64,000 nucleotides of DNA from Nannocystis bainbridge (GTDB taxonomy: Bacteria > Myxococcota_A > Polyangia > Nannocystales > Nannocystaceae): NCBI RefSeq assembly GCF_028368995.1, contig NZ_JAQNDL010000001.1, positions 2,528,001 through 2,592,000 of the forward strand, in the 5' to 3' direction. The notes beneath the pieces were generated by a model. The model was not told where the DNA came from. It did not search any database and saw nothing but the letters and a program-made list of their open reading frames with translations. Each line of letters opens with the position of its first letter. The stretch's first letter is position 1. Shown one piece after another: positions 2,774-55,425 of the stretch. A program made the translations under genes and the position numbers.

Positions 2774-2843
2774 TGCCCGAACGAACATGCTCGAACGGAC
2801 ATGCCCCAGCGCGCATGTCCCGATGAACATGCTGCGAAGGACA
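2774..2843. repeat. Tiled array of five 14-bp TGYC-N6-RRCA palindromes
   Basis: tgcccgaacgaaca/tgctcgaacggaca/tgccccagcgcgca/tgtcccgatgaaca/tgctgcgaaggaca; CATG junctions at 2786, 2800, 2814, 2828; between convergent genes. Confidence 0.85.
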
Positions 2844-2862
2844 GGCTCGGCTCGCCCGCGGC

Positions 2863-3696
2863 TCAGGCGATGAGGCCCGAGCGCGCGTCTTCGGGCAGGT
2901 GCTCGAGCGCCGACGACAGCTGCTCGTGCACCGCCGCCGCGATCTTCTTGAGCAGCGCCTGCGCCTGATCCTTGTTGCCGCCGGCGTCGATGAACGCGTC
3001 GTACTCCACGCGGGCGAACTCCAGCATCACCACCGGACCTGGCTGAAGGGACAGCAGCGGCCACGAGTAGCGCTCGACCGAGTGCTCGGCGTTGGGCGAC
3101 AGCCGCCAGCGGTTGGCCAGCATGAAGCGGTCGTGGCCCTCGAGCGCCGCGGCCAGCGGCCCGCCGAGCTTGGCGATCACCGCGTCGCGGCTGGTCAGCA
3201 GCCGGTGCTGCAGCTTGAACGCCTCGAGCCGCTCGCGGCGGTCGTGCGGCGGGTAGCGCGGGTCGTCGCGGCGGAACGCCAGCCACGACAGGAACTCGTG
3301 GTTGTGGCGCCACGCCAGCCGCTGCGCCTCGATCTCGGCCACCAGCTTGGCGATGCGGTTCGAGTGGCGCCGCTTCAGCGACACGCCGGTCTCCGTCATC
3401 ATCTCGCGGATCTCCCGCGAGAACAGCGACAGCGAGGTGTGGCTGCGGGCCTCGTCGATCGCCTCGAGCGCCAGCCCGACGCCGAGGCCGACGTGGGCCG
3501 CGATCTGGATCGTCGTCACCACGATCCGCTCGTACAGGATCGGCATCACCTGCTTGAGCTCGTCCTGCGCGACCGTGCGCGCCTTCTCCAGCGCCTCCTG
3601 CTTGGCCGCGGTCAAGCTGCGGCGGAGCTCCGCCACAGTGGGGTCGTACGCCGGATTGTCCGCGTGCGCGAGGAAGACTTCCTTCGCAGGAGCCAT
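2863..3696 (-). CDS. hypothetical alpha-helical protein
   Basis: 277-aa ORF with typical codon bias and normal composition; no recognised motif. Confidence 0.75.
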   Translation of the reverse strand: MAPAKEVFLAHADNPAYDPTVAELRRSLTAAKQEALEKARTVAQDELKQVMPILYERIVVTTIQIAAHVGLGVGLALEAIDEARSHTSLSLFSREIREMMTETGVSLKRRHSNRIAKLVAEIEAQRLAWRHNHEFLSWLAFRRDDPRYPPHDRRERLEAFKLQHRLLTSRDAVIAKLGGPLAAALEGHDRFMLANRWRLSPNAEHSVERYSWPLLSLQPGPVVMLEFARVEYDAFIDAGGNKDQAQALLKKIAAAVHEQLSSALEHLPEDARSGLIA

Positions 3697-3929
3697 GGGG
3701 CGCTAACAGTAAGCAACATCGCCCCGCCTGGCTATTACTTGGCGAGATCCGGCACGGATCACGGGCTGACGATGTTGCGGGCGTCCGCGCGCGGGCTCGC
3801 CCGGCCCGGGCGCCTCCCGCGGCGCTTCCGACTGTGTAAGGATGCCGCGCTGCCCTGCGTTTCCGGGGCCAGCGCCGGGCGAGACCACCCCCACCCCAGG
3901 GACGTTCCCCGCCCCGCCGGAGCCACCCA

Positions 3930-6900
3930 ATGCCGCACGCGCGACGCCTCCTCTGTTCGACCCTGTCCCTCGCGCTCGTCACCGCCTGCAACCCGCCGGC
4001 GCCAGCCGCCACCGAGGGCCCTGTCGGCCCCGGAGGTACCCCCGTCGCCCCGGCAGACCCCAAGGGCGAGCCCGTCGCCGAGCTCGTCAACGTCTCCGGA
4101 CCGACCGGCGCCCGCACCGAGGACCTGCCCGAAGGGACATTCCTCGGCCCCGGCGCCAAGCTGCGCGCCGGCCAGGTCCTCGTCGTCCCGCGCGGCACCA
4201 TCGTCGAGCTCCGCCTCGACGGCGGCACTGTGCTGCGGATCAACGAGGACACGCGCCTCACCCTCCCCGACGGCCCCCACGCCCGCGCCGTCAGCCTCGA
4301 CCGCGGCGAGCTCGTCGCCATCGTCGCCGCCGACCAGCCCCCGCTGGCCCTGCGCGCCGGCGCCGACACCCTCGACGTCTCGTCCGGCGAGGCCCGCGTG
4401 CTCGCCCGCGGCGACCATCACAGCTACGACGTGGTCTATGGGTCCGCCCGCCTGCGCACCGCCGGCCAGGACGTCCCGCTCGGCCCTGGCGCCCACGTCG
4501 ACACCCCGCTCGCCCCGCAGCAGCCGGTCCAGCCCGAGATCAGCATGCGCCCGCTCGAGGACACCGCCTGGTCGCGCGCCTTCGAGGTCGCCGCGCGCAT
4601 GGCCGACTCCGTGCCCGCCGGCGTCGGCAGCTTGACCGCGCGCCGGGCCGGCACCCAGACCGAGCTTTACAAGCTCGCGCTCGTCGATCAAAAGGTGAAC
4701 GTCGCCATCTCCGGCCGGATCGCCCGCACCGAGATCGAGCAGACGTTTTACAACGAGGCCGCGGAGGTGCTCGAGGGCACCTACCGGTTCCCGCTGCCGG
4801 CCGACGCCTCGATCTCCGGCCTCCAGTTGCTCGTCGGCAACACCTGGATGACCGCCGAGATGCTGGAGAAGGAGCGCGCCCGCGAGATCTTCCGCCAGAT
4901 CGTCGACGCCACCATCCCGCGCGACCCGGCCCTGCTCGAGTGGGAGCGCGGCAACATCTTCAAGCTCAAGATCTTCCCGATCCCCGGCCGTGGCGAGCGC
5001 AAGATCCGTCTCAGCTACACCCAGGTGCTCCCGGTCGTCGGCGACGACCTGCGCTACCGCTACCCGATGACCGGCGCCAGCAGCGGCGCCAGCGGCACCG
5101 AGATCGAGAACTTCGCCTTCTCGATCGCCGTCGACAAGTCCGAGCTGCCCGCCACCGGCGAGCTCGTCACGCCGATGGCCGCGCTGCAGCGGCGCGACCT
5201 CGGCGATCGCGTCGAGCTGACCACCAAGTCGCAGCGGTTCCGCCCCGTCCACGACCTCGGCGTCGACATCCCGCTGCCCGCGGGCGAGCGTCGCGTCCAC
5301 ACCGAGACCCACCTCGACCGCGACGGCCAGGCCTACTTCATGCTGGCCTTCAAGCCCGACCTCAAGCTCGCCGCCAGCGATCGCCCGCGCCACGTCGCCT
5401 TCGTCCTCGACCGCAGCCACAGCACCACCCCCGACCTGTGGACCGTCGCGCGCAGCCTCGTGCAGTCGACCGCCGCCACCTTGCGCGACGGCGACCGCAT
5501 GACCGTGCTCGCCTGCGACGCCGCCTGCGACGTCGCCCCCGGCGGCCTCGGCCCGGCGACTGGCGCTCACCTCGCCGACGCCGAGCGCTTCCTCGACACC
5601 CAGACCCTCGCCGGCGCCAGCGACATCGGCGGCATGATGCGCGCCGCCGCCGGGGCCCTCGGCTCCGCCTCGGCTGACCCAAGGGCCAGCCAGGCCGAGC
5701 GCGTCATCATCTACCTCGGCGACGGCAGCCCCAGCGCCGGCGCCCTCGCCCCCGACGAGCTGCTCCGCGACGTCGAGCGCCCGCTGCAGGGCACCCGCGT
5801 CCAGGCCGTCGCGCTCGGCGCCCGCTCCGACCTCACCGTCCTGGCCGCGCTCGCGCGCAAGACCGGCGGCGACCTCCTGCGCGCCGACGCCAAGGACGAC
5901 CTCCGCGGCCTCGCGCGCGAGCTCGGCGTGCGCGCGGCCCTCCCGGTCGCCCGCAACGTCGACCTCTCTCTGCCGCAGGGCATGGTCTACGCCCACCCCG
6001 AGCAGATCGCCGGCATCCGCCCCGGTGAGACCATCACCCTCGTCGGCAAGCTCAGCCAGCCCGTCCACGGCCCGCTGACGATCCAGGCCACCGGTCCCGA
6101 CGGACATGTCGTTTCGGACAGCATCCAGGTCGACCTCGAGGCCGTGCCGGGCCCCGACGCCTCGCGCCGGGCCCACCTCCCGCGCACCTGGGCGCGCGAG
6201 GAGATCGAGGCCCTCACCGCCGATCGCGGTCACGCCGCGCGGGCCGAGATCATCGACCTCTCGCGCCAGTACACCGTGCTGTCGCGCTACACCGCGCTGC
6301 TCGTGCTCGAGAACGACGCCATGTTCCGCGAGTTCAACGTCGTGCGTCAGTCCGGGCGCACCACCGGCTGGAACGGCGCGATCGAGCCTGGCAAGGCCGA
6401 CCCCAAGGCTCCGGCCGGCGGCGTCCCGGTGACCACCGCGCCCGCCCCCGCCCCCGTGCAACCTGCTCCGAAGGACAGCTCGCGCGCCGAGGCCCCGCCC
6501 GCAGCCGAGCCCGCCCCGCCGCCGGCCCCCTCGCCGACGCCTGACACCGCCGCCGCCTCGCGCCCCGGCCGGGGCAAGGCCGCCGAGGAGGCTCTCGACG
6601 ACGCTCTGGCCGACGCCGGCGAGAGCCGCCGCACCCGCGACAACGCCGAGAGCCAGGTCAGCGAGGCCGAGGCCCCGATCGATCTCGAAGAGGACGCTCC
6701 CGCCACCGAGAAGGCCGCCTCCACCAGGCCTCCGGCCCCCGCCCCCTCCCCCGCCAAGAAGGAGGCCGCCAAGACCAAGGGCGACGCCGCCGACAGCTGG
6801 GACGGCGACATGATCGCCGGCGGCGCCCTCGGTAGCGGCAAGGGTTACGGCCCGCGCCCGCGTGCGCCCAAACCTGTCTGGAAGGTCAGCCCCGGCGTCG

Positions 6901-8722: not shown

Positions 8723-8739
8723 CAGCGCACCTCGCCGCC

Positions 8740-9246
8740 TGTCCCGAAGGACAGCATGACGAGCACGAGCCTCACGCCCGCGCTCGCCTCACCTGTCCCC
8801 GCGGACATCCGCCGCTCCGCGACGAGCCCTGTCGCTCTGCGTGCTCCGGCCCAACGGCTCGCCTCGCTGTCCTCGAGGCCGCATGGGTCTCGGCTGGGCT
8901 CGCAACGCCGCTCGCGCTCTGTCTCCTTCGCCCCCCACGGGTGGGCCTCGCTTCGCTACCTGTCCTCGAGGCCAGCTCACCCTTCCGCATCTGTGTCGTC
9001 CGCGACTGGGCGCTCGCCCGCGACTTTTCCGCCTGTCTACAAGGACAGCCCAGATCGCCTCCGAATCACCTGTCCCTTCGGACATCTCATCTATTCCCCC
9101 CTCACCGGCCTCTGCAGCCGTCCTCGGCTCCACCGCCGCGCGCGCCGCGATCCGTCTCCCATTTCATCTGTCCCCGAGGACACATCATTTTTCTCCCGGT
9201 TCTCGGCTCCCCGCGGTCGCCGCCGCATCACATGTCCCGAGGGACA
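8740..9246. repeat. Cluster of six isolated perfect TGTC-N6-GACA sites in a long intergenic region
   Basis: sites start at 8740, 8794, 9034, 9071, 9169, 9233; degenerate copies near 8868 and 8961. Confidence 0.85.
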
Positions 9247-14042: not shown

Positions 14043-14044
14043 CA

Positions 14045-14086
14045 TGCTCTTTCCGTCATGTCCTTAAAAACATGTCTCGATAGACA
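14045..14086. repeat. Three-unit 14-bp array spanning an intergenic gap and the next start codon
   Basis: tgctctttccgtca/tgtccttaaaaaca/tgtctcgatagaca. Confidence 0.8.
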
Positions 14087-15533
14087 CCTCATCCTCGCCG
14101 TCGCCGGCCTGCTCGCCTGCGACCCCGACGAGCCGGCCCCGGCCTCGACCTGTCCCGTCGAACAGGTGACGCGCATGGCCGCCCCCGGGCGCGACTGGAA
14201 CCTCGAAGCGGGCTCTCGCGTCTCGTTCTCGGCCTTCGGCGATCGCCTGCTCTACACCTTCGACGCCTACGACGACCCCGACCGGAGCTATTTCTTGCTC
14301 GACCGCTGCGGCGGCGTGCCCGAGCGGTTCAGCCTCCTCGACGGACCCGCGTCCCGATTCACCGGCATCGAGACCGACGCCGGCTGGGTGCTCTACGCCG
14401 AGCGGGACGAACGCTACTTCGTCCTCGACCGCCTGGACGTCCCCGGCTTCGACGAACCGCGCCCCGTCCTCGGCCTCCCCGACATTCGGCTTCATGGATG
14501 GGGCGACGCGCGCCGCCTGATCTTTACCAGCGACTCCGAAGGCCTCTCCAACCTCTCCGGGGTCGCCGGCCTCGGCGGCCGGACCTACGAGATGTACATC
14601 CACCACGGCGACCCGGACGTCCCCGCCGTCGAGCTCGGCAAGACCATCGTCAACCCCCAGTACGCCGACGATCACATCCTCGTCCTCTCCGACGACGGCA
14701 GCCTGCGTCGCGTCGACGACCGCATCGGCGAGTCCGCGCTGCTGCTCGGCGGCGTCCGCCGCCACTGGTTCCACGCCGCCACCCGCCGGCTGATCTGGCA
14801 GCAGATCGGCGACGACATCAGCGAGCCCGTGTTCCTCCGCGACCTCGCGGGTGGCGAGGATCTACCGATCGCCGTCAATACCTTCGCCCAGCTGTCGTGG
14901 AACCGCCTGGAGCTGCCGGATCAGGGCGCGACCGGCAACTGGCTGTTCAACGCCTCGGGCAGCCACGCCGCGCTCTTCGGCCCCGAGCGCTTCGTCGCCG
15001 CCGTCGTCCGCACCGCTGACGGCGCCGCGGTCGAGCCGCCCGCCGACTCGCGGCTGCTCGGCGCCCCCGCCGACGAGTTCAGCCTGCTGTTCGACGACGG
15101 CGACGAGGCCGCGCTGGCGCGCTGGAACCCGGACGTCGGCGCCCTGCGCGAGTGGTACCGCGGGCCCTCGGGCGCCCCGCTGCCGGTGGCCTTCGCGCTC
15201 GAAGACGACTTCATCGACTACCTCGTCCTCGACCCGGACGGCAACGCGGGCACGCTGTGGCGCTTCGACCACCGCACCGGCCAGGCCACCCTGATCGCCC
15301 CACGCATGGGCCCTGCCATCCGCCTCGACGACGACCGCTACCTCACCTTCCTCTCCACCTCAAAATACTACCGCCCCGCCGATATCGTCCTCTTCGACCC
15401 CGACTCCGGGCTCTACACCACCCTCGCCAAGGACATCGACAACTACCACTACTTCCCGGACCAGGGCCTCATCTACGCCGTCAGTCGCAGCGACGCGCCC
15501 GGCCTGTACGCCGCCCCGATCCCGTCGAAATAG
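14058..15533 (+). CDS. beta-propeller-like lipoprotein (paralogue 3 of 3)
   Basis: lipobox LLA-C; same motif set; N-terminus MSLKTCLDRH encoded by the repeat array. Confidence 0.75.
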   Translation: MSLKTCLDRHLILAVAGLLACDPDEPAPASTCPVEQVTRMAAPGRDWNLEAGSRVSFSAFGDRLLYTFDAYDDPDRSYFLLDRCGGVPERFSLLDGPASRFTGIETDAGWVLYAERDERYFVLDRLDVPGFDEPRPVLGLPDIRLHGWGDARRLIFTSDSEGLSNLSGVAGLGGRTYEMYIHHGDPDVPAVELGKTIVNPQYADDHILVLSDDGSLRRVDDRIGESALLLGGVRRHWFHAATRRLIWQQIGDDISEPVFLRDLAGGEDLPIAVNTFAQLSWNRLELPDQGATGNWLFNASGSHAALFGPERFVAAVVRTADGAAVEPPADSRLLGAPADEFSLLFDDGDEAALARWNPDVGALREWYRGPSGAPLPVAFALEDDFIDYLVLDPDGNAGTLWRFDHRTGQATLIAPRMGPAIRLDDDRYLTFLSTSKYYRPADIVLFDPDSGLYTTLAKDIDNYHYFPDQGLIYAVSRSDAPGLYAAPIPSK

Positions 15534-15600
15534 CTCTCGGGACATGTCCTCTCCGACATGCCCTTTCTTACATGTCTTTGAAGGCATGTCCGATCGGACA
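15531..15600. repeat. Five-unit 14-bp array beginning at a stop codon
   Basis: tagctctcgggaca/tgtcctctccgaca/tgccctttcttaca/tgtctttgaaggca/tgtccgatcggaca. Confidence 0.85.
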
Positions 15601-16076
15601 GTCATTCACAGCGTCGGCAGTGAGCGTCCTGCAGAGCGGCCCCTGCGAGCGCGTTCTCCCGCATCGTCGGCTCGCTCCGTCGACGCGGCACCTCGAGCGT
15701 CCAGCCCGGCCGCCGCTGCGAGCATCCCCTCGCGCGCGAGGAGCCGCGCTTCGAGAGCCTCCGGCCCGCACTTCTTCACCGCCGAGCCGCGCTTCGAGAG
15801 CCTCCGGCGCCCACTTCCTCAACGCGCGCGCGCCGGGCCGCACTGCGAACTTCCGGCGCGCAATTCCTCACCGCTCCCCGCCGGGCCGCCGCTTCGGGCG
15901 GCCTGTCGCTCCTGAGCTGACCACGCCTCGCGCGCGCCGCGGTGCGCAGGCGCACCGCCTCGGGCCTGCGCTCCACGCTGCAGCGCCGCGGTGACGGTGC
16001 GGGCGCGCCCCGTGCGCGACCTCGCTCGCTGCGGGGCTGGCGGTGATGCTTCACCTCTGCTACCTCCCCGCGGACC

Positions 16077-22558: not shown

Positions 22559-23517
22559 CGGCGAGGAGACCGAGTCTGCCGCCTGCGCCGCGCGAACACC
22601 AGCAGCGGCAGCGCCCACGCCAGCGCCTCGCCCTGGCCCTCGCGCGAGATCGCACAGCCCTCGGCGGGCTCGGACATCACCAGACAGTCACCGTCGGGGC
22701 AGTCGCTCGGCAGCAGGTCGGCACCTGTCTCTTCGCGCAGCCAGGTCAGGATCGGGTACGGCACCCCGTACACGCTGTCGCCGGTGCCGCACGGGCGGAC
22801 CCCGCGGGACGTCACGCCCGCCAGCCGGTACGCGCCGCTCGCCAGGCGCACGAACGCCGGCCCGCCCGAGTCGCCGCCGCACGCGTCCTGGCCCTCGCCG
22901 CCGGCCCGGAACTCGCGCCGGCTCTTGCTGAACGTGTCGATCGGCGTGGTCATGATCCGCTTGTGACCGACGTCGGCGGTGGTCTGCAGCGGGTCGTCCT
23001 CGGCGTCGCGCACGACCCCGAAGCCGACGACGTGGATCTCGTCGCCGACGTGCATCGTCTCGTCCCACTCCTCTTGCGTGGTGAGCGGCGGCACCAGGGG
23101 GACCCCATACACGTCCTGGGCCAGGATCACGTAGCCGAAGTCCCACGCGTCCGACTTGCAGTTCTCGACGCAGGCCGTCGGGTAGGTGCCGTAGCGCTCG
23201 ACCCCGGCGATGCGCCGCTCGTCCTGGGTGTAGATCGAGTCGCCGAAGACCACCGCCATCTCCTCGAGCTTCGGCTCGTGGGTGAGGCAGTGAGCCGCCG
23301 TCAGCACCACCCGCGGGGCCACCAGCGTGCCGGTGCACAGGCTCGCGGTCGTGATCGTGTCCTGGCTGAGGATCGCCACCACCGACGTCCACTCGTCGAC
23401 CGGCACCTCCTCGCCGCCGACGATCGGCACCGGCCGCGGCGCCCCCGCGCCGAGCGGCAGTCCGCACAGGACGGAGACCAGCGCCGCGGTCGAACCTGCG
23501 AACATGGGCGCCAGCAT
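22555..23517 (-). CDS. secreted trypsin-like (S1) serine protease with MYXO-CTERM-like tail
   Basis: IVGG, VLTAAHC, DFG, CGGDSGGP; tail GCAIS..WALPLLVFARRRR; start 23517 or 23505. Confidence 0.88.
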   Translation of the reverse strand: MLAPMFAGSTAALVSVLCGLPLGAGAPRPVPIVGGEEVPVDEWTSVVAILSQDTITTASLCTGTLVAPRVVLTAAHCLTHEPKLEEMAVVFGDSIYTQDERRIAGVERYGTYPTACVENCKSDAWDFGYVILAQDVYGVPLVPPLTTQEEWDETMHVGDEIHVVGFGVVRDAEDDPLQTTADVGHKRIMTTPIDTFSKSRREFRAGGEGQDACGGDSGGPAFVRLASGAYRLAGVTSRGVRPCGTGDSVYGVPYPILTWLREETGADLLPSDCPDGDCLVMSEPAEGCAISREGQGEALAWALPLLVFARRRRQTRSPRR

Positions 23518-23623
23518 ATCACTGCAACATCGTCCGCGCCCGCGCGCCGACGTCCGGGTTCCGACCGGCCCTTGCGGGCGGCCCCGCCCGCGGGTACTAG
23601 CCTTGACTCCAAGGAGCGTCCCC

Positions 23624-24197: not shown

Positions 24198-24239
24198 TGG
24201 CACTTCAGACATGTCGCTTTGGACATGTCCATTCAAACA
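24198..24239. repeat. Three-unit 14-bp array immediately after the terminator
   Basis: tggcacttcagaca/tgtcgctttggaca/tgtccattcaaaca. Confidence 0.8.
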
Positions 24240-24352
24240 TGTCATGCCGCTCGCTCGCGGCGTGGGCGGTCGCCCGACCCGCGTCGGTGAACGCGCGCGA
24301 CCACACGCGAGTCGCACGCCAGCCCGCGCGCGGCTCGGAGTAAAGTGCCGGG

Positions 24353-26044
24353 ATGAGCGCCCGTATCGTCGCCGCCCGGCCGTGCGCGCCGCAGTCCGCC
24401 GCAGCGCCCCCGTCGCGCCGTGAAGCCGACCCGCCGGGCGCCCCGCAGCCCGCCCTGCCCCGCACGCGCACGCGGCCGCGCCGGCGAGCGAGCCCACCGA
24501 GCAGCTCGCCGGCCGTCTTGCTGGCCGCCCTCGCGCTCGCGCCCGCCTGCTTCAGCGACGACGGCTACCACCCGGCCGGCGCCACCGCGCTCACCACCGA
24601 CGCCGACGCCACCAGCACCACGACCACCACCGGCACCACCGGCCCCGAGCCGCCCGCGACCACCACCAGCACCACCGGCGAGCCGGCGCCGGTGTGCGGC
24701 GACGGCGTCGTCGACCCCGACGAGGACTGCGACGACGGCAATCGCGACGACGGCGACGCCTGCCTCGCGACCTGCGTCGCGGCCGGCTGCGGCGACGGCG
24801 AGGTGTGGCTCGGCGTCGAGGCCTGCGACCAGGGCGCGGCCAACCATCCGACCGCGCCCGACACCTGCAGGCCGACCTGCGAGCTGCCCGCGTGCGGCGA
24901 CGGCGGCCTCTACGTCGGCCCGCTCGGCCCCGACATCGAGGTGCCCACCGGCGAGGAGGCGATCGGCGACGGCGACGACGCCCCGCGGATCCTCGGCGCC
25001 GCCGCCGACGGCAGCTTCGTCGTCGCCTGGCGCGTCACCAACATCGTCGCCAGGGTCCAGGCCCGCCGCGTCGATCCGTCCGGCGAGCCGCTCGGCGAGG
25101 TGATCGAGCTGGTCGAGCAGCCGTTCCTGCAGGTCCGCGACCCCGTCGTCGCGGCCCTGCCGAACGGCGACTTCGCGGTCGCCTGGCAGTCGCAGTTCGA
25201 GGATCCGCAGCTGCTGGTCCGCGGCGTCGCGGCCGACGAGCTCGCGCCCGCCTTCAAGCTCACCAACCGCGTCGCCGCCTCGCCCGCGCTCGCCCTCGAT
25301 CCGTCCGGCGCCCTGATCGCGGCCTACCGCGCCGGCGGCACCAAGCAGACGACCCAGATCTACCTGCGCCGCTTCCCGCTGTTCACCGAGTCCGGGAGCC
25401 CGGACGAGCAGGCGATCAGCGAGCACACCGCGGGCGCCGCCGGCTCGCCGACGATCGCGGTCCACCCCGACGGCAGCTTCCTGGTGGCCTGGAGCGACCC
25501 CGAGGGCGCGATCGTCTATCGCCGCTTCACCCCCGACCTGGTCGCCGGGCCGCTGGTCCCCACCGGCCTCCACGTCGGCGGCGGCACCAGCAACAGCGCC
25601 CTGCCGTGGATCGGCGCCGCCTTCCAGCCGACCACCGGGACCGCCGTGATCGCCGGCCGCGACCCCGACGACAGGCTCGTGCTGCAGCAGTTCGACCCCG
25701 GCGACCTCGCCCGCGGCCGCGTCCAGGTCGACGACCTGGACGCTTTGTACATCCCCTTCGTCGACGTCGCCAGCGACCCGTGGGGCAACCTCGCCGTCGC
25801 CTGGTCGACCTGCGGCGGGCCCGAGGAGGTCGAGCCGAATTGCGCCGACCTGGCCTCGGTGTCCTCGTTCCGGTGGTTCTACGCCGACCTGACCCCGCAG
25901 GGCCCGGCCGCCGTGGTCACCACCCGCGAGGGCATGCCCCACCCGCTGTCGCTCGCCGTCGCCGCCACCGGCGCCGCCGCGGTCGCCCGCGTCGAGGACA
26001 ACAAGGTCCTCCTCAACATGTCCCCGGTGCAATGTCCTCCATGA
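24353..26044 (+). CDS. myxobacterial Cys-rich (DUF4215-type) lipoprotein, paralogue 1
   Basis: LAPA-C lipobox, Thr-rich linker, CGDGVVDPDEDCDDGN repeats; true start uncertain. Confidence 0.8.
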   Translation: MSARIVAARPCAPQSAAAPPSRREADPPGAPQPALPRTRTRPRRRASPPSSSPAVLLAALALAPACFSDDGYHPAGATALTTDADATSTTTTTGTTGPEPPATTTSTTGEPAPVCGDGVVDPDEDCDDGNRDDGDACLATCVAAGCGDGEVWLGVEACDQGAANHPTAPDTCRPTCELPACGDGGLYVGPLGPDIEVPTGEEAIGDGDDAPRILGAAADGSFVVAWRVTNIVARVQARRVDPSGEPLGEVIELVEQPFLQVRDPVVAALPNGDFAVAWQSQFEDPQLLVRGVAADELAPAFKLTNRVAASPALALDPSGALIAAYRAGGTKQTTQIYLRRFPLFTESGSPDEQAISEHTAGAAGSPTIAVHPDGSFLVAWSDPEGAIVYRRFTPDLVAGPLVPTGLHVGGGTSNSALPWIGAAFQPTTGTAVIAGRDPDDRLVLQQFDPGDLARGRVQVDDLDALYIPFVDVASDPWGNLAVAWSTCGGPEEVEPNCADLASVSSFRWFYADLTPQGPAAVVTTREGMPHPLSLAVAATGAAAVARVEDNKVLLNMSPVQCPP

Positions 26045-26102
26045 CATGTTCTCGTGGACATGTCGCATGGAACATGCGCCGATAGACATGTCTTAAAGGG
26101 CA
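26005..26102. repeat. Seven-unit 14-bp array crossing a stop codon
   Basis: ggtcctcctcaaca/tgtccccggtgcaa/tgtcctccatgaca/tgttctcgtggaca/tgtcgcatggaaca/tgcgccgatagaca/tgtcttaaagggca. Confidence 0.85.
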
Positions 26103-31204: not shown

Positions 31205-31364
31205 TGTCCCGCGGGACAGCTCGCCTCGCCGACCCCGCGAGGCTCGAGTTGTCCCGCAGGCCCCCTCGCCGCGGAGCCGTGACTCACGACTCCGCGCTCG
31301 TCATTTCCGGCGCGCCGCCGCGCCGTCGCTACCACCGGTCCCAGAGGACATGTCCCGCAGGACA
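31205..31364. repeat. 14-bp palindrome sites between convergent genes
   Basis: single site 31205-31218; tandem pair ggtcccagaggaca/tgtcccgcaggaca at 31337-31364. Confidence 0.75.
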
Positions 31365-31372: not shown

Positions 31373-31827
31373 TCAGGGCCCGACGGGATAGCGGCTGGCG
31401 ACGGCGATCCGGTTCCACAGGTTCATCTGGATCGCCAGCCACTCGACCGCCGCGATCTCCTCCGAAGACAGCACCTCGGCGGCCTCGGCGTAGATCGTCT
31501 CGGGGATCTGGTCGTGGGCGACGAGCGTGACCGCCTCGGTCAGCTCGAGTGCCGCGCGCTCCTTGTCGGTGAAGTACTGGGTCTCGCGCCAGGCCGGCAG
31601 CACGCTGAGGCGGTCGCTGGTCTCGCCGGTGGCCAGCGCGTCGCGGCTGTGCATGCGCACGCAAAAGGCGCAGTGGTTGAGCTGCGACGCCCGCAGGCGC
31701 AGCAGGTGGACGAAGCCGTCGGCCAGGCCGGCGGCCTTGGCCCGCTGGGTCACCTGCGCGTCGAGGGCCACCACCGCCCGGTAGAGCTCCGGCGCGGCCT
31801 TGCCGAGGTTGACACGATCGTCCTGGT

Positions 31828-31831
<4 letters not shown>
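31373..31831 (-). CDS. carboxymuconolactone decarboxylase / AhpD family protein
   Basis: LRASQLNHCAFCVRMH, WRET..FTDKERAAL, NLWNRI; overlaps the glnS stop. Confidence 0.88.
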
Positions 31832-34273: not shown

Positions 34274-34365
34274 GCGCGGGGCCGACGCACGGCGCCGGGG
34301 CGTAAGAGCCCCCCTGGACTCGCCGTCCGCGGCTCACGAGCGCCGCACGCGGCCGTTCTCTTGCA

Positions 34366-34449
34366 TGGTCGAAGCGACATGCGCTTTCCAACATGCCCTC
34401 GGAGACATGCCCTCTCGGACATGCTCTTCGGGACATTCCCGCGAGGACA
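34366..34449. repeat. Six-unit 14-bp array between convergent genes
   Basis: tggtcgaagcgaca/tgcgctttccaaca/tgccctcggagaca/tgccctctcggaca/tgctcttcgggaca/ttcccgcgaggaca. Confidence 0.85.
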
Positions 34450-34455
34450 TGTCCG

Positions 34456-35028: not shown

Positions 35029-35269
35029 GCCTTTTAAAAGATGATCGACGCCGGGCGCGAACTCAAGGGCGCCGGGGGGCGCACATTCGCCCGCGACATG
35101 TTCTTTAGGACATGTACGAACATTGCCCGCCCGCCGCGCGACGCCGACGCGGTCGCGCCCTCGCGGCGCTCGCCCGCGCTGCAGCGCAGAGCTCGCCCCG
35201 GCGGCCGCGCGTCCGGCCGGTTCGGTCCCGATCGATCCCGCTGCGCGACTCCCGTCTCGCTGGCTCACC

Positions 35270-35900
35270 CGCATCACCTCCGCCTCGCCTCGTCTCGCGC
35301 CGGTTGCTCGGTCGCCTGGTCTCCTCGTTCTCCGTCGTGTCCGTCTCGCGTCGGTTGACCCGTCGCTCGTCGCCTCCTCGCTCCTCGCATCCGCCTCGCG
35401 TAGACGCTCCGTCGTCGCGCCTCCTCGCCCTTCGTCGCGTCCGTTTCACGTCGTTGCCCCGTCGCCTCGTCTCTCCTTCGTCGCCCCGTCCTTCCGTCGC
35501 GTCCGTTTCGCGTCCTTGCCCCTTCGTCTCGCCCCGTCCGTCCGTCGCGTCCGTTTCACGTGGGTCGCTCTGTCGCCACGCCTCGTCGCCTCGTCGCCTC
35601 GTTCGTCGCCCCGTCCTTCCGTCGCGTCCGTTCACGTGGGTCGCTCTGTCGCCGCGCCTCACCGCCCCGTCTTTCCTTCGCCTCGTCTCGCTCGGCAGCG
35701 TCACCTCGTTCGCGTCCTTCGGCTCCGACACTTCCGCTTCGCCCCGTCGCATCGCTCTCTGCTTCGACGCGACCGTTGCCTCTCTTCCCGCCGCATCTCG
35801 TTCTGCTCCGTCGCTCCGCGTCACTTCCCCCTGCTCTGCCGTCGCCTTCGCTCGTCGCTCGTCCCTTCGCTCCCCTCCACCGCGGCCCGCCTGGCCGCTT
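35270..35900. repeat. A-depleted low-complexity tract with imperfect internal repeats
   Basis: plus strand is almost only C/G/T; four copies of (cc)gtcgcgtccgtt(t)c near 35433, 35494, 35542 and 35619. Confidence 0.7.
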
Positions 35901-36294
35901 CACGCCTGTTCCGTCTCACCGTGAGGCTGCACAGGCGCGGGATCCGGGTGACCCGCGAGGCCCCAGGGCTCGGGGCCCGACCTCCCCGCCTTTCGCGTCA
36001 GCCTCCACGATCAGGCATATGCTGTTGCAACGACCTCGGTTCACGCAGCGGTCAAGCCCTCCCCGATCCGCTCTCGCCGACCTCGCAAGGCCCGCCGCCC
36101 TGCCTCCTGGCTGTTCTCGTGGCGCTCTCACGAGGGTTTTCACTGACGCGCGCCGACGCGGTCGAAACCATTGCGTCACGCGATCACGTGACCGGACGGT
36201 CGACCGGACAGCGAGGCCGAAAGACGTCTCGTGTTGGCTCCACCGTCATCGCAGGCGCAAAGCTCGCGACGCTGCTACCGTGGGCAATAGCTGG

Positions 36295-46565: not shown

Positions 46566-47420
46566 ATGCCGACCTGCCCTTCGCTGCGCCCGTGGAGCCT
46601 GCTCGCCGCCTTTTTGGTCGGCTGCGTGTTCGTCCCGCCCCCGCCGCTGCCGGAGGAGATCGCTGCGATGGAGGCCGCCAAGGCCGCCCGCAAGTCGGGC
46701 CGCCCGTCGGCGCCGGGGGAGACCGAGGGCGAAGGAGGCGGCGGCGCCGAGATCGCCTTCAAGAAGGGCGACCCGGCCCCCGAGGGCCTCTCGCCGGCGC
46801 AGCTGCGGGCCTACAACGTCGCCCAGGGCGACCCGGAATCCGGCGAGTTCACCCTCGAAGAGGCCCTCGCCGGCCTGCCCGGCCGCCCCGACGACGCGCT
46901 GTGGGCCCTCCTCAAGACCCCGCGCGGCGTCCTCGAGTGTGAGCTGCACGTCGAGACCACGCCGAAGACCATCGCCAACTTCGTCGGCCTCGCCCGCGGT
47001 CTGCGCCCCTGGTACGACAAGGCCTCGGACGCGTGGGTCAAGCGGCCCTACTACGACAACTCGACCTTCCACCGCGTGATCCCCGGCTTCATGGTCCAGG
47101 CCGGCGACCCGACCGGCACCGGCCTCGGCAACCCCGGCTACCTGATCGAGGACGAGATCGATCCGGAGCTGATCCACGACGCGCCCGGCGTGCTCAGCAT
47201 GGCCAACCGCGGCCCCAACACCGGCAGCGCCCAGTTCTTCATCACCCTCAACCCGACCCCGCACCTCGACGGCAAGCACACCGTGTTCGGCCACTGCAAC
47301 GACGCCGCCATGCGCCTGGCCGACGACATCGCCCTGGTCCCGCGCGACGCCAACGACAAGCCGCGCGACCCCGAGCTGCTGAACGCGATCGAGATCGTCC
47401 GCCGCCCGCGCGCCCGCTGA
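46566..47420 (+). CDS. cyclophilin-type peptidyl-prolyl isomerase, lipoprotein
   Basis: LVG-C lipobox; [43 protein letters not shown]. Confidence 0.92.
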
Positions 47421-47428
47421 CGCGCGGC

Positions 47429-47521
47429 TGTCCGCAAAGACATCCGACATGTCCCCCCAGACATGTCGTGACTCGGTGCATCAGGCGGTGACATGCCCCT
47501 GAAGACATGTCTCCGAAGCCA
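47429..47521. repeat. 14-bp palindrome cluster with phase slips
   Basis: units at 47429, 47450, 47494, 47508. Confidence 0.75.
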
Positions 47522-47929: not shown

Positions 47930-49086
47930 TCCCGTTCGAGCTCGCGACCGCCGCGCGCATCGTGTTCGGCGTCGGCGTCGCCGCCCAGGTCGGCCCGATC
48001 GCCGCCGAGCACGGGCGCCGCGCCCTCGTCGTCACCGGCCGCGACCCGGCCCGCGCCGAACCTGTCCTCGAGGCCATGCACGCCGCCGGCCTCGAGCTGT
48101 CCGTGTTCACCGTCGCCGGCGAGCCGACGGTCGCCGACGCCGAGCGCGGGGTCGTCGCCGCCCGCGCCTGCGCCTGCGACGTGGTGGTGGCGATCGGCGG
48201 CGGCAGCCCGCTCGACGCCGGCAAGGCGATCGCCGCCCTCGTGCGCAACCCCGGCCCGCCGCTCGACTACCTCGAGGTCGTCGGCCGCGGCCGCCCGCTC
48301 GTCCACGACCCGGTGCCCTTCGTCGCCGTGCCGACCACCGCCGGCACCGGCTCCGAGGTCACGCGCAACGCCGTGCTCGCGGCCGAGGACCAGCGCGTCA
48401 AGGTCAGCCTGCGCAGCCCGAAGATGCTGCCGCGCGCCGCGATCGTCGACCCCGCGCTGACGCTGTCGCTGCCGCCGGCCGTGACCGCCGATTGCGGCCT
48501 CGACGCCCTCACCCAGTTGATCGAGCCGTTCTTGTCGCGCAGGGCCAACCCGATCACCGACGCCCTGTGCCGCGACGGCATCGCTCGGGCCGCCCGGGCC
48601 CTGCCGCGTGCGTTCGCCGACGGCAGCGACCTCGAAGCCCGCAGCGACATGGCCCTCGCCAGCCTGCTCGGCGGCCTCGCCCTCGCCAACGCCGGCCTCG
48701 GGGCCGTGCACGGCTTCGCCGGCCCGATCGGCGGCGCCTTCCCCGACGCCCCGCACGGGGCCGTGTGCGCCCGCCTGCTGCCCGAGGCGCTGCGGATCAA
48801 CGCCCGCGCCCTGCGAGCCCGCGAGCCCACGAGCCCGGCCCTGGCCCGCTTCGACGAGGTCGCCCGCCTCGTCACCGGCGACCCCGCCGCCACGCTCGAC
48901 CACGCGGTCGACCACCTGCGCGCCCTGGTCGCGTCGCTGCAGATCCGCCCGCTCGCCGCGTTCGGCCTGCGCGCCGCCGACCTGCCCGCGCTCGTCGAGC
49001 GCGCCCGCCAGGCCAGCAGCATGAAGGCCAACCCGCTCGACCTCACCGACACCGAGCTGCACGAGGCCCTGGCAGCCGCGCTTTAA
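47926..49086 (+). CDS. iron-containing alcohol dehydrogenase
   Basis: [40 protein letters not shown]; GTGA overlap. Confidence 0.92.
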
Positions 49087-49160
49087 GACATGCCCCTAAC
49101 AGCATGCTCTTGAGGACATGCCCCATACGACATGCCCTTATCGACATGTCTTGACGAGCA
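49077..49160. repeat. 14-bp array (six slots) crossing the ADH stop, between convergent genes
   Basis: CATG at 49089, 49103, 49117, 49131, 49145, 49159. Confidence 0.88.
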
Positions 49161-49236
49161 TGTTGATGATCTGACCGACGAGCCAGCGACGAGCGACTCC
49201 GTCCTGGTCTCACGGGCCTGTCGCCTTGCCGGGCGC

Positions 49237-52088: not shown

Positions 52089-52352
52089 CCCTCCGGCGCT
52101 CCCCCGCCCCCACGCATCACTCGCGCCCCCGGCGCGCGGAAAGCTTCCGCATCACCCGATCCTCCGCGCCCACCACCACCTGTCTCAAGAGACATCCTCA
52201 TCCACATCTCCGCCCCCGAAGCCCCGCCGCCTCGCACTCCCTGTCCTTCAGGACATCTCGCTGACCTGCGAGTCCTCCCGGCCTCACCCTGCTCTCTGCC
52301 CGCAAACGCCCCCTCGGACCCTCGCGCCGCGCGTGTTAGGCTCGCCGCCGCC

Positions 52353-53222: not shown

Positions 53223-53236
53223 GGCGCTTGCGAGCA

Positions 53237-53278
53237 TGTCCCCGGGGGCATGTCCCCGAGAACATGCCCCGAAGGTCA
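53237..53278. repeat. Three-unit 14-bp array between convergent genes
   Basis: tgtccccgggggca/tgtccccgagaaca/tgccccgaaggtca. Confidence 0.82.
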
Positions 53279-53289
53279 TGCGCGCCGCG

Positions 53290-53751: not shown

Positions 53752-53771
53752 GCCGCGCAGCCTAGCAGGCC

Positions 53772-54572: not shown

Positions 54573-54586
54573 GCCCGACCATACCC

Positions 54587-55261
54587 TCAGCGCAGCAGCG
54601 CGGAAAGCCGGGCGCGCACCCCGGGCCACGGCGTCCACGCCGGGTCGGGCGGGTCGCCGCCGGCCAGGACGCCGAAGAAGCGCATGCCGCAGGTCTCGGC
54701 GAACTTCTGGTCGGCGAACGCCCGGTCGCCGACCATGACCATGCGCTCGCCCGCCAGCCCCATGCCCGCCAGGGTGCGCGCCGCCATCCGCGCCGCCGGC
54801 TTCATCGCCCCGTGCTCCTCGGTCACCAGCGAGAAGTGGAACAGCGACGGATCGATGCCGAGCGCGCGCAGACGGTCGTGAGCGCCGCGATAGTCGCTGA
54901 CGAGCCCGAGCCGCAGGCCGCCGGCGCGCAGCCGCAGCAGCAGCTCGGCCGCGCCGGGGTAGGCCCGCCCGGCCCGCTCGACGGCCCGCAGCACCTGCGG
55001 CTCGTAGCTGTCGGCGATCCACCGGCGCCAGACGTCCTGCTTGCCCGGGTCGCCCGCGAGCCGCTGCAACGTCTCGCGCGCCAGCGTCCCGGCGTCGTCG
55101 AAGTCGACCCCCGCGAGCCCTGTGCGCACCCGCGTGTACCGCCACAGCCGCGGCAGCGCCGGCAGCATGCGCGTCATCACGAACCGCTCGACCGGCCGCT
55201 TGTCGTAGAGCGTGCCGTCGAGGTCGAACACGACCCCGGCGATCGCACCGTCACTCGCCAT
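54587..55261 (-). CDS. HAD-family hydrolase
   Basis: FDLDGTL, LVSD, KP, MVGDRAFAD. Confidence 0.87.
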   Translation of the reverse strand: MASDGAIAGVVFDLDGTLYDKRPVERFVMTRMLPALPRLWRYTRVRTGLAGVDFDDAGTLARETLQRLAGDPGKQDVWRRWIADSYEPQVLRAVERAGRAYPGAAELLLRLRAGGLRLGLVSDYRGAHDRLRALGIDPSLFHFSLVTEEHGAMKPAARMAARTLAGMGLAGERMVMVGDRAFADQKFAETCGMRFFGVLAGGDPPDPAWTPWPGVRARLSALLR

Positions 55262-55285
55262 GATGCCCCCTCGCCCGCCCGCTCA

Positions 55286-55425
55286 TGCCCCCGAGGACCT
55301 GTCCTCCGGGACACCCTCTCGAGGAGACCGCGGCCGCTCGTCGTTCGCCGCAATCTGTCCCCGAGGACATGCTCTTACGCACCGGTCCTTTCGCGCAGGT
55401 CCCGAAGGACATGCCCTCTCGACCA
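55286..55425. repeat. Ten-slot in-phase 14-bp array with a degenerate middle
   Basis: good units at 55286, 55300, 55356, 55398, 55412; all starts congruent mod 14. Confidence 0.75.

What the first reader, a model, noticed from the sequence alone, without database searches (positions are those of the whole stretch)
2774..55425. The palindrome tiles into gap-free arrays with exact 14-bp period, mostly after stop codons and between convergent genes
Seen: arrays at 2774-2843, 14045-14086, 15531-15600, 24198-24239, 26005-26102, 31337-31364, 34366-34449, 49077-49160, 53237-53278 and 55286-55425. CATG junctions recur every 14 nt while the N6 cores vary freely. Five of these sit between convergent gene ends. 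Inference: 14 bp is about 480 degrees of B-DNA, so successive dimers would rotate about 120 degrees and three units (42 bp) make about four turns. That geometry suits cooperative filament-like coating, possibly as a transcription roadblock or a supercoil/domain barrier. Conserved phase with variable cores argues for selection on binding rather than simple microsatellite drift.
Basis: partly seen in the sequence, partly recalled or inferred. Interest (0 to 1): 0.88.

Follow-up and report, generated by a model that had tools for sequence, protein, structure and literature searches.

The report
Phase-locked 14-bp palindrome arrays in Nannocystis
A soil myxobacterial genus carries thousands of copies of a 14-base palindrome, tiled head to tail in strict register just behind gene ends, and the way it is conserved suggests that something in the cell reads it, although what reads it is unknown.

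Summary
In the 11.05-Mb genome, CATG-to-CATG distances peak at 14, 28, 42, 56, 70 and 84 bp (3736 pairs at 14 against about 100 background), with no side peaks at 13 or 15.

- **Unit:** TGYCC-N4-GGRCA. Abutting copies create GGRCATGYCC junctions.
- **Census:** about 1951 arrays and 7536 units, plus 1757 isolated copies, half of them inside genes.
- **Position:** arrays start a median 16-23 bp after stop codons. 659 of 1431 convergent gaps hold one; promoter-side gaps almost never do.
- **Distribution:** found in all 10 other genomes of the genus (Nannocystis), and in none of 20 neighbouring genera. In 300 other Myxococcota genomes only unrelated simple repeats matched.
- **Conservation:** orthologous arrays keep place and register. 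In the closest species pair, CATG is 93-96% identical and the N4 core 62-69%.
- **Not a REP element:** no REP-type transposase, few identical neighbouring units, and only weak hairpin covariation (none across N4, modest between adjacent junctions).

Best reading (confidence 0.4): operator-like arrays read on double-stranded DNA by an unidentified dimeric protein. Rivals are a REP-like 3'-UTR RNA hairpin element and selfish palindromic DNA. No protein, RNA end or binding was shown.

The parts
2774..2843 (.). Array of 5 units (4 CATG junctions at 2786, 2800, 2814, 2828). It fills the convergent gap between a + gene ending at 2757 and a - gene ending at 2863.
   Evidence: In three congeners the same gap holds a different inverted-repeat element instead.
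14043..14086 (.). Array of 3 units that starts at the stop codon of the + gene ending at 14042. Same-direction gap.
15531..15600 (.). Array of 5 units that overlaps the stop codon (15531-15533) of the + gene. Same-direction gap.
   Evidence: An array of 4 CATG is also present in G007 at the orthologous gap.
24198..24241 (.). Array of 3 units downstream of the + gene ending at 24112.
   Evidence: Chains of 4, 2 and 3 CATG lie at the orthologous gap in G005, G010 and G007.
26005..26102 (.). Array of 7 units whose first units lie in the last codons of the + gene (stop at 26042-26044).
   Evidence: The coding part is conserved in 4 species and the downstream units are degenerate in the others.
31337..31364 (.). 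Two units with one CATG, directly downstream of the stop of the - gene 31373-31831.
   Evidence: The motif is kept in G005 and G007.
34364..34451 (.). Array of 6 units in the convergent gap 34274-34455.
   Evidence: Alignment to the Nannocystis exedens locus L005 shows the same register, a one-unit (14-bp) indel and diverged cores. Chains of 4, 2 and 5 CATG lie here in G005, G010 and G007.
47448..47509 (.). Two short chains (2 CATG each) downstream of the + gene ending at 47420.
49077..49162 (.). Array of 6 units that begins at the stop codon (49084-49086). Convergent gap.
   Evidence: All five congeners aligned carry an in-register array starting at the stop codon, with different cores.
53235..53280 (.). 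Array of 3 units (4 CATG) that nearly fills the 67-bp convergent gap 53223-53289.
   Evidence: One short-read contig of run X1 spans it without gaps.
55284..55425 (.). In-register stretch of 10 unit lengths with two non-motif units in the middle. It lies downstream of the stop of the - gene 55439-56431.
62514..62588 (-). Array lying in frame inside the Lhr-type helicase gene (58756-63432, - strand), between its helicase domains. It is translated as a low-complexity linker.
   Evidence: The frame is open in 4 species, and the window has about 25 more codons than the others.
8740..9246 (.). Five isolated TGYCC-N4-GGRCA palindromes (8740, 8794, 9071, 9169, 9233), not in 14-bp register, in a 788-bp same-direction gap.

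Best explanation
The arrays are a family of interspersed palindromic repeats restricted, among the genomes searched, to one genus (Nannocystis). They occupy the genomic niche of REP/BIME elements: just behind stop codons, above all between convergent genes. They are built differently, from 14-bp units TGYCC-N4-GGRCA tiled without gaps, so that CA|TG junctions recur every 14 bp.

**Shown here**
- The motif, its exact spacing and its CATG core are maintained at the same sites across species, while the cores and, largely, the arms turn over.

**Inferred**
- The unit is read on double-stranded DNA by a two-fold symmetric (dimeric) sequence-specific protein.
- Single sites are scattered through the genome, including inside genes.
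- Arrays of typically 5-6 units (70-84 bp) give multivalent, register-dependent binding at gene 3' ends.

**Most speculative**
- There the coat acts in both directions on RNA polymerase that is no longer followed by ribosomes, or on local supercoiling.
For: 1. **Strict register.** The lag-14 count is 3736, with no excess at 13 or 15. 125 of 283 neighbouring chains are in phase. TGYCC-N4-GGRCA occurs 871 times in coding and 886 times in intergenic sequence, against 9-80 and 6-20 for every other spacing from N0 to N10. A hairpin loop should tolerate changes of one base in length; a rigid reader would not.
2. **Core conserved far more than the arms.** In G005 versus G007, CATG is 93-96% identical (coding flanks 95-96%), CC/GG 62-72%, N4 62-69% and other intergenic DNA 85% (Fisher p = 1.7e-6 and 7.4e-7). 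In the window versus 3 species, CATG is 77%, the arms about 50% and N4 33%. Stem pairs of a hairpin should be constrained alike.
3. **Little sign of base-pair selection.** Watson-Crick frequency across N4 equals the expectation from independence. Covariation between adjacent junctions is only modest.
4. **Units are not copies.** Identical neighbours make up 1.2% and the commonest 10-mer occurs 9 times in 2471 units. No Y1/RAYT transposase was found in 0 of 11 genus genomes. Point 5 argues further that the shared word reflects a shared reader rather than copying.
5. **Isolated sites inside genes are kept.** In 15 of 15 ortholog comparisons (5 sites x 3 species) the motif is retained, twice with a changed N4. 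Their frame use favours the cheapest codons, as for a DNA-level word.
6. **Composition.** The motif preferences within N4 are mirror-symmetric. The residual strand skews in N4 follow the replication strand, not the transcription direction. N4 stays 44-61% A+T in a genome with 28.5% A+T.
7. **Size.** The array size distribution is not geometric. It peaks at 5-6 units and drops sharply after 7-8.
Against: - No protein candidate was found. Neighbours of the rare promoter-side arrays carry no DNA-binding Pfam domain. A D12-class methyltransferase is present but is not restricted to the genus.
- Arrays fold better than shuffles as RNA (z from -1.3 to -5.1 in 10 folds).
- In one gap the array is replaced in sister species by an unrelated inverted repeat, as expected if any hairpin will do.
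- N4(i) is the exact reverse complement of N4(i+2) in 95 cases, against 25 +/- 5 expected.
- In same-direction gaps the arms carry a transcription-direction component of T/G enrichment that N4 lacks. From the counts, worked out by hand, this is about z = 4.8 and z = 3.6. It would fit G-U tolerance in RNA.
- In-frame arrays inside two genes argue against a strong obligatory roadblock. They fit insertion wherever it is tolerated.
- Gene calls come from my own codon-bias caller, not from a curated annotation.
Confidence: 0.4

Rival explanations
1. RNA-level 3'-UTR element that works like REP. Transcribed arrays fold into stacked hairpins, with neighbouring GGRCAUGYCC junctions pairing across an N4 loop. 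These act in both directions as partial terminators and/or as barriers to 3' exonucleases, and ribosomes melt them when they lie inside genes.
For: - Arrays begin a median 16-23 bp after stops and about 215 bp before the next start.
- They are rare in divergent gaps.
- Predicted folds are more stable than shuffles: 6 of 10 folds had 0 of 200 shuffles as stable.
- There is modest covariation between adjacent junctions (z up to 7.1) and complementary N4 pairs at lag 2 (95 against 25).
- One orthologous gap holds a different hairpin repeat in other species.
- The arms, but not N4, carry a transcription-direction T/G skew (counts).
- Canonical hairpin-plus-T-tract terminators are few in a 14-kb sample: 6 against 2.3 in shuffles.
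- E. coli REPs are reported to be dual terminator/stabiliser 3'-UTR elements (abstract of bioRxiv 10.64898/2026.03.23.713779).
Against: - CATG is far more conserved than the equally paired arms.
- No loop-length variation is seen.
- There is no pairing excess across N4.
- Among degenerate junctions, wobble-compatible variants are not favoured on the sense strand once the replication strand is accounted for.
- N4 loop sequences follow the replication strand, not the transcription direction, and no T-rich tract follows the arrays.
- 871 isolated copies inside genes, with the same strict spacing, have no obvious RNA role.
- A GC-rich genome would form stronger stems without A/T.
- No Rfam family matches the window.
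Confidence: 0.3
2. Selfish or mutationally driven palindromic DNA with no host function. Units are added by local direct or inverted duplication (hairpin-primed template switching or slippage), or by an unknown enzyme. They persist wherever they do little harm: 3' gaps, convergent gaps and disordered protein linkers.
For: - The distribution fits tolerance. Density of chains of at least 4 CATG is 0.93 per kb in convergent gaps, against 0.015 per kb in divergent gaps.
- Arrays are rarer beside genes with atypical codon usage: 10% in the lowest quintile, against 29-36% in the others.
- Arrays lie in frame inside genes, and 291 of 1951 extended arrays lie inside called coding sequence.
- Whole-unit indels occur between species.
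- There is an excess of identical or reverse-complementary N4 at short lags and there are arrays of near-identical units.
- Copy number varies widely within the genus: 409-869 pattern hits in six genomes, 1-13 in five.
Against: - CATG and the register persist while neutral positions saturate.
- Most units are as different from their neighbours as from random units.
- No RAYT transposase, no conserved flanks or terminal repeats, and none in 2.9 million viral contigs.
- A 14-bp insertion cannot create the isolated in-gene copies, and these are conserved in 15 of 15 comparisons.
Confidence: 0.2
3. A genome-wide 'signature word' kept up by a biased DNA process, for example an uptake signal for natural transformation, or sites of a CATG-directed methylation or repair system. 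On this reading the arrays are simply the places where many copies are tolerated.
For: - Density is about 0.84 per kb (7536 + 1757 copies in 11.05 Mb).
- The word is present in both coding and non-coding DNA, with codon-frame preferences.
- It is restricted to one genus among the genomes searched.
Against: - The known uptake signals I recall are not palindromes and do not tile.
- CATG is neither depleted nor strongly enriched in coding DNA (observed/expected 1.13).
- The one methyltransferase family tested is shared with genera that lack arrays.
- None of this explains a strict 14-bp register.
Confidence: 0.07

Closest known systems
REP/BIME elements of enterobacteria and pseudomonads
   Same: - High-copy extragenic palindromes at gene 3' ends and between convergent genes, clustered and specific to a taxon.
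- Reported as gyrase cleavage hot spots (BIME-2; passages of PMC6379681) and as dual terminator/stabiliser 3'-UTR elements (abstract of bioRxiv 10.64898/2026.03.23.713779).
   Different: - Units are 14 bp rather than 20-40 bp, and tile without gaps in exact register.
- No GTAG or CGTC end tag.
- No RAYT transposase in 0 of 11 genus genomes.
- The stems are not the conserved part; a 4-bp junction is.
- Many copies lie inside genes.
- The REP surveys PMC3733652 and PMC12306157 do not mention myxobacteria or CATG (term searches).
Rickettsia palindromic elements (recalled; no paper read here)
   Same: Palindromic repeats that can sit in frame inside protein-coding genes and are translated as surface or linker peptides. 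Here this is seen in an Lhr helicase and a Ser/Thr kinase.
   Different: As I recall, RPEs are 100-150 bp single elements, not tiled 14-bp units. Most copies here are extragenic, behind stop codons.
Tandem operator arrays bound by small dimeric repressors: MetJ met-boxes, omega heptads, ParR centromere repeats (recalled)
   Same: Short symmetric or repeated boxes abut without spacers, so that dimers bind side by side and touch each other. The register matters and the cores can vary.
   Different: Those arrays number one to a few per replicon and lie in promoters or centromeres. Here there are about 1951 arrays at gene 3' ends, and no protein is known.
Highly iterated palindrome HIP1 of cyanobacteria, and uptake signal sequences DUS/USS (recalled)
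   Same: A short word at roughly one copy per kb, in coding and non-coding DNA, specific to a lineage and conserved beyond expectation. DUS pairs often sit behind genes.
   Different: Those words do not form phased tandem arrays. HIP1 is contiguous (no N4 spacer), and DUS/USS are not palindromic.

Membership tests
REP/BIME (RAYT-associated extragenic palindromes) | High-copy imperfect palindromes in extragenic DNA, at 3' ends and between convergent genes | tested here: met
   Of 801 chains of at least 3 CATG, 433 are convergent, 290 same-direction, 29 divergent and 49 coding. The gap from the stop codon is a median 16-23 bp.
REP/BIME (RAYT-associated extragenic palindromes) | A conserved GTAG or CGTC tetranucleotide at one end of a 20-40 bp unit | tested here: not met
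   Unit and flank logos show only CATG-YCC-N4-GGR. Nothing is conserved beyond half a unit.
REP/BIME (RAYT-associated extragenic palindromes) | A cognate Y1 (IS200/IS605-like) RAYT transposase in the genome | tested here: not met
   PF01797 was found in 0 of 11 genomes of the genus. It was found in 8 of the 20 other genomes searched and in 6 of 14 control genomes.
REP/BIME (RAYT-associated extragenic palindromes) | A stem kept by compensatory change | tested here: inconclusive
   No pairing excess across N4. There is a small excess between adjacent junctions (z 3-7) and at N4 lag 2 (95 against 25).
Simple tandem repeat (mini- or microsatellite by slippage) | Near-identical units, with copy number as the main variable | tested here: not met
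   Identical adjacent units make up 1.2%, and the distance distribution is almost the same as for random unit pairs. Whole-unit indels between species do occur.
CRISPR array | Repeats of 24-48 bp separated by unique spacers of similar length, at one or a few loci | tested here: not met
   The period is 14 bp with only 4 variable bases, and there are about 1951 loci.
Intrinsic (hairpin plus U-tract) terminator | A G+C-rich stem followed by a T-rich tract on the sense strand | tested here: not met
   The 30 nt downstream of arrays in same-direction gaps hold 13-14% T. Arrays are 56% G+C, against 68-72% for other 3' gaps.
Tandem operator array of a dimeric DNA-binding protein | Two-fold symmetric boxes at a fixed centre-to-centre distance, with spacing under constraint | tested here: met
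   N4 spacing is 10-100 times commoner than N0-N10 alternatives. There are no side peaks at 13 or 15. The register is kept across species.
Tandem operator array of a dimeric DNA-binding protein | A cognate protein that binds in a register-dependent way | not testable with these tools
   No candidate emerged.
Highly iterated palindrome or uptake-signal type genome word | Over-representation in coding as well as non-coding DNA, specific to a lineage | tested here: met
   There are 871 isolated copies in coding sequence, spread evenly along genes. The family is in 10 of 10 congeners and 0 of 20 genomes of neighbouring genera, and only unrelated simple repeats matched in 11 of 300 other Myxococcota.

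The most novel reading that the evidence does not exclude
Nannocystis uses a general, protein-based gene-end system. A DNA-binding dimer restricted to the genus coats phased CATG arrays (three dimers per four helical turns). From either side it stops RNA polymerase that has lost its trailing ribosome at the stop codon. This would replace intrinsic terminators in a 72% G+C genome and insulate convergent genes from each other and from transcription-driven supercoiling. Translated arrays inside genes are read through, because ribosome-coupled polymerase displaces the coat.
Probability: 0.2. Interest if true: 0.9.

Novelty: new variant of a known kind. Interest (0 to 1): 0.72.

Why it matters
About 1% of an 11-Mb genome is given over to one phase-locked word, and it sits behind roughly a tenth of all genes and in nearly half of the convergent gaps. 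None of my literature searches found it described.

- **If a protein reads it,** this would be the first genome-wide operator-array system at gene ends. It would give a direct handle on how high-G+C bacteria that lack U-tract terminators end and insulate transcription.
- **If it acts as RNA,** it is a REP-like system with no RAYT transposase and with a conserved 4-base core that pairing alone does not explain.
- **If it is selfish,** it needs a new way of spreading, and it shows palindromic DNA being written into protein linkers.

Either way, the arrays mark gene ends in Nannocystis genomes and will confuse gene callers and assemblers. The 13- and 15-bp phase mutants give a simple, decisive experiment.

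Tried and rejected
- **RNA evidence:** no RNA holder was listed for the 9.9-kb stretch. Laying four soil-metagenome DNA runs gave only short, low-depth contigs, a few of which span arrays without gaps. That says nothing about function, and these runs may be the source sample.
- **Strand skew, read too early:** a first pass suggested G-U-friendly skew on the sense strand. Splitting by replication strand showed that most of it follows the leading strand. N4 'tetraloop' preferences (UUCG, GNRA) do the same, and so do the degenerate junction variants. I withdrew the strong RNA claim. Only a residual transcription-direction component in the arms remains.
- **Array polarity:** ACATGC and GCATGT junctions are mixed within arrays as chance predicts (302 arrays against 290 +/- 11).
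- **Restriction pressure on CATG:** rejected. Observed/expected is 1.13 in coding DNA, and outside arrays GCATGC is at 1.01 and ACATGT at 1.61, so neither is depleted.
- **Reader protein via self-regulation:** 15 genes beside arrays in divergent gaps gave no DNA-binding domain.
- **A CATG methyltransferase as a marker for the genus:** the D12 family is also present in sister genera.
- **Other databases:** Rfam gave 0 matches in the window. Viral contigs gave 0 matches to a three-junction pattern.
- **p53 coincidence:** GGACATGTCC in the literature returns only p53 response-element papers. I treated this as coincidence.
- **Abundant small proteins:** a ranking of small proteins by codon bias was not followed up, because there was no way to validate a hit.
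- **Transposon excision footprints (4-bp CATG target duplication):** considered and set aside, because footprints would not keep CATG conserved.
- **Failed search:** one literature search failed on term syntax and was not repeated.

Full report
**1. The observation**

Nine of them hold two or more CATG junctions at exact multiples of 14 bp. Two details differ. Interval 31337-31364 has a single CATG. Interval 55286-55425 stays in register over 140 bp but has two middle units that do not resemble the motif.

A three-CATG pattern at 14-bp spacing occurs 18 times in the window, against 0.00 in 100 shuffles. Tandem Repeats Finder also reports period-14 and period-28 arrays at these places.

The window lies in an 11,048,555-bp assembly of five contigs with 71-72% G+C. 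Across it, the 39,940 CATG sites give lag counts of 3736 at 14, 2073 at 28, 1586 at 42, 751 at 56, 383 at 70 and 390 at 84. Background is about 100, or about 290 at multiples of three. Lags 13 (72) and 15 (262) show no excess.

**2. Anatomy**

Chains of CATG at exactly 14 bp number 2066 (two or more), 801 (three or more) and 473 (four or more). The longest has 12.

The unit logo is CATG-Y-C-C-N4-G-G-R. That is equivalent to the 14-bp palindrome TGYCC-N4-GGRCA tiled so that CA|TG junctions form the 10-bp palindrome GGRCATGYCC. C/G at the arm positions is 68-76%. N4 is diverse: the commonest 4-mer makes up 3%. It is nevertheless 44-61% A+T per position, with mirrored base exclusions. Arrays are 56% G+C, against 68-72% for other 3' gaps.

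I then extended chains with a position-weight matrix, using a threshold at the 98th percentile of intergenic background. This gives 1951 arrays, 7536 units and 105,504 bp. The size distribution is not geometric: 193, 313, 259, 110, 32 and 6 arrays have 4, 5, 6, 7, 8 and 9 units.

A further 1757 isolated TGYCC-N4-GGRCA copies lie outside chains. The spacing is specific. N4 gives 871 coding and 886 intergenic copies, whereas every other spacing from N0 to N10 gives 9-80 and 6-20. GGRCA-N0-TGYCC is likewise enriched (329 and 284, against 20-47 and 14-17).

**3. Position**

No annotation was available, so I called genes with a codon-usage log-likelihood caller of my own. It gave 7916 genes and 82% coding density. 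All context counts depend on it.

- Chains of four or more CATG: 301 convergent, 151 same-direction, 9 divergent and 12 coding. The genome has 1431, 4331 and 1457 gaps of the three kinds.
- 659 of the 1431 convergent gaps hold a chain of at least two, and 297 hold a chain of at least four.
- Arrays begin a median 16-23 bp after the stop codon that faces them, but about 215 bp before the next start codon.
- The exact distance from the stop to the first CATG peaks at +9 (63 of 786) and -5 (18). At these distances the TG of a TGA stop falls on the TG of a junction.
- 782 of the 7916 genes are followed by a chain of at least three.
- Arrays are rarer beside genes with atypical codon usage: 10% of convergent gaps in the lowest quintile, against 29-36% in the others.

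In the window, 4 of the 10 listed arrays are in convergent gaps by my calls, not 5. The other six lie downstream of a stop codon in same-direction gaps.

**4. Which organisms have it**

The glutaminyl-tRNA synthetase in the window is 93% identical to that of a record titled Nannocystis exedens DSM 71. The next best hit is 64%. This places the window's genome close to Nannocystis.

- The four-CATG pattern is present in all 10 other genomes of the same GTDB genus. Five large ones have 409-527 hits (G000 has 869) and five others have 1-13.
- It is absent from the 20 genomes of other genera of the family and class that were searched.
- The five low-count genomes carry the same motif in shorter arrays.
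- Among 300 further Myxococcota genomes, 11 have 1-5 hits. Nearly all of those listed are short tandem repeats of unrelated sequence.
- No match was found in the viral contig collection.

**5. Evolution**

Synteny with G005, G007 and G010 holds across most of the window. Arrays lie at the same gaps and in the same register, often starting at the stop codon. Their cores differ, and there are whole-unit indels.

Identity among aligned positions:

| Comparison | Coding flanks | CATG | Y/R | CC/GG | N4 | Other intergenic |
|---|---|---|---|---|---|---|
| Window vs three species | 88% | 77% | 49% | 51% | 33% | 68% |
| G005 vs G007, both directions | 95-96% | 93-96% | 77-86% | 62-72% | 62-69% | 85% |

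For the closest pair, mismatches are 5 of 114 at CATG against 22 of 72 at N4, and 7 of 101 against 26 of 68 in the other direction. Fisher p is 1.7e-6 and 7.4e-7. These samples come from a single 64-kb region.

Units within an array are almost as different as random pairs: 1.2% of neighbours are identical. There is a small excess of identical N4 at short lags, and of exactly reverse-complementary N4 two units apart (95 against 25 +/- 5). Local direct and inverted duplication therefore contributes to growth.

In one convergent gap (2758-2862) the window has an array where three congeners carry an unrelated inverted-repeat element.

**6. Tests of structure and strand**

- Pairing across N4 is no more frequent than independence predicts.
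- Pairing between adjacent junctions shows a small excess (z 3.2-7.1 at four positions).
- RNA folds of ten array strands give z from -1.3 to -5.1, with adjacent junctions paired. A palindromic consensus produces this by itself.
- An apparent sense-strand enrichment of T and G in the arms turned out to follow mainly the replication strand. The genome has a very strong G-C skew and no gene-strand bias.
- From the counts I worked out by hand a residual transcription-direction component in the arms (about z 4.8 for T/A and 3.6 for G/C) and none in N4.
- Loop sequences and degenerate junction variants follow the replication strand.
- No T-rich tract follows arrays.
- Rfam has no match in the window.

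**7. Arrays and single copies inside genes**

The array at 62514-62588 lies in frame in the Lhr-type helicase gene, between its helicase domains. The frame is open in all four species, and the window's version is about 25 codons longer.

A second array lies in frame in a 1210-residue Ser/Thr kinase, well beyond its kinase domain. I did not check other species for this one.

My caller places 291 of the 1951 extended arrays at least 45 nt inside coding sequence. This figure needs a curated annotation.

The 871 isolated coding copies are spread evenly along genes and prefer the reading frames with the cheapest codons (476, 327 and 68). About a third have a motif-like neighbour in register. In the window, five such sites with alignable orthologs keep the full motif in 15 of 15 comparisons, twice with a changed N4.

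**8. What it is not**

- **Not a REP of the known kinds.** There is no GTAG or CGTC tag and no Y1/RAYT transposase in 0 of 11 genus genomes.
- **Not a CRISPR array, a simple satellite or an intrinsic terminator.** See the membership rows.
- **CATG is not under restriction-type avoidance.** Observed/expected is 1.13 in coding DNA.
- **A D12-class methyltransferase is present but is shared with genera that lack arrays**.

**9. Mechanism**

The features hardest to explain without a sequence-specific reader are these:
- the strict 14-bp register;
- the strict N4 spacing even for isolated copies inside genes;
- a 4-bp core conserved like coding sequence, while the arms that would pair with equal weight in a hairpin drift;
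- a shared word among units that are not copies of one another.

I therefore favour, at confidence 0.4, reading on double-stranded DNA by a symmetric dimer. On this view arrays give multivalent, register-dependent binding at gene ends. A role in stopping ribosome-free polymerase from both sides, or in local topology, is inference only.

A REP-like RNA role (0.3) fits the position, the folding, the replacement by another hairpin element and the residual arm skew. It does not fit the core-versus-arm contrast or the absence of loop-length variation.

Selfish or mutationally driven DNA (0.2) fits the tolerance-shaped distribution, the in-frame arrays and the wide differences in copy number within the genus. 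It does not fit the persistence of CATG and register, or the conserved single copies in genes.

A uptake-signal or methylation-linked 'signature word' gets 0.07.

**10. Literature**

Searches for Nannocystis with genome and repeat, and for Nannocystis with palindrome and intergenic, found no description of this family. Neither did searches for 14-bp tandem palindromic convergent intergenic repeats, for Myxococcota intergenic repetitive palindromic terminators, or for CATG methyltransferase in myxobacteria.

What I read:
- The N. exedens genome announcement (PMC5658511, passages) mentions only large repetitive regions that blocked closure.
- Two REP surveys (PMC3733652 and PMC12306157, term searches) mention neither myxobacteria nor CATG.
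- PMC6379681 (passages) reports gyrase cleavage hot spots in BIME-2.
- The abstract of bioRxiv 10.64898/2026.03.23.713779 reports REPs as dual terminator/stabiliser elements.

I did not open any supplementary files. My statements about Rickettsia palindromic elements, MetJ, omega and ParR arrays, HIP1 and DUS/USS are recalled from memory, not taken from any call.

**11. Verdict**

I rate it as a new variant of a known kind (interspersed extragenic palindromes), with an architecture I did not find described.

Noticed in passing
window 62514-62588 (- strand gene 58756-63432): A 14-bp array lies in frame inside an Lhr-type helicase gene. It is translated as a Gly/Met/Ser/Glu-rich linker, is present in four species, and differs in unit number between them.
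   Followed up: yes
L127 3440-3560 (G000 contig C1, about 23451-23548): A second in-frame array lies in a 1210-residue Ser/Thr kinase, downstream of its kinase domain. Orthologs were not checked.
   Followed up: partly
Orthologs of window gap 2758-2862 in G005, G007, G010 (loci L095-L106): Where the window has a CATG array, three congeners carry a different inverted repeat built on GAGTGACTCG / CGAGTCACT-like arms. This suggests a second family of 3'-gap palindromes in the genus.
   Followed up: no
G000 contig C3, 1471159 to 1501880: The cumulative G-C skew peaks at C3:1471159, probably the replication terminus. Two extreme arrays lie within about 16-30 kb of it: the longest chain in the genome (12 CATG, C3:1487048-1487205, filling a convergent gap) and the densest cluster (about 20 junctions in 330 bp at C3:1501549-1501880, with a 64-bp higher-order repeat).
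   Followed up: partly
Whole genome G000: G-C skew is unusually strong (about +/-0.07-0.13 per 100 kb) with almost no gene-strand bias. N4 cores and array arms carry this replication-strand skew clearly.
   Followed up: partly
Whole genome G000, coding regions: CTAG is strongly depleted (observed/expected 0.10), while AATT (4.73) and TATA (2.44) exceed a Markov expectation.
   Followed up: no
window 35429-35671: A C/T-rich tandem repeat with periods of 62 and 76 bp (TRF scores 205 and 244), unrelated to the CATG family, in the long divergent gap 35029-36279.
   Followed up: no
window 15741-15896: A tandem repeat with period 43-49 bp (TRF scores 137-142) in the gap between the array at 15531-15600 and the release-factor-3 gene.
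   Followed up: no
window 8740-9246: Five isolated copies of the palindrome, not in 14-bp register, scattered over a 788-bp same-direction gap upstream of the lgt gene.
   Followed up: no
Genus genomes G002, G004, G006, G008, G009: Five genomes of the same GTDB genus hold the same motif, but 30-800 times fewer four-CATG patterns than the six large genomes. G009 is a 40-contig assembly, so this is unlikely to be only an assembly effect.
   Followed up: partly
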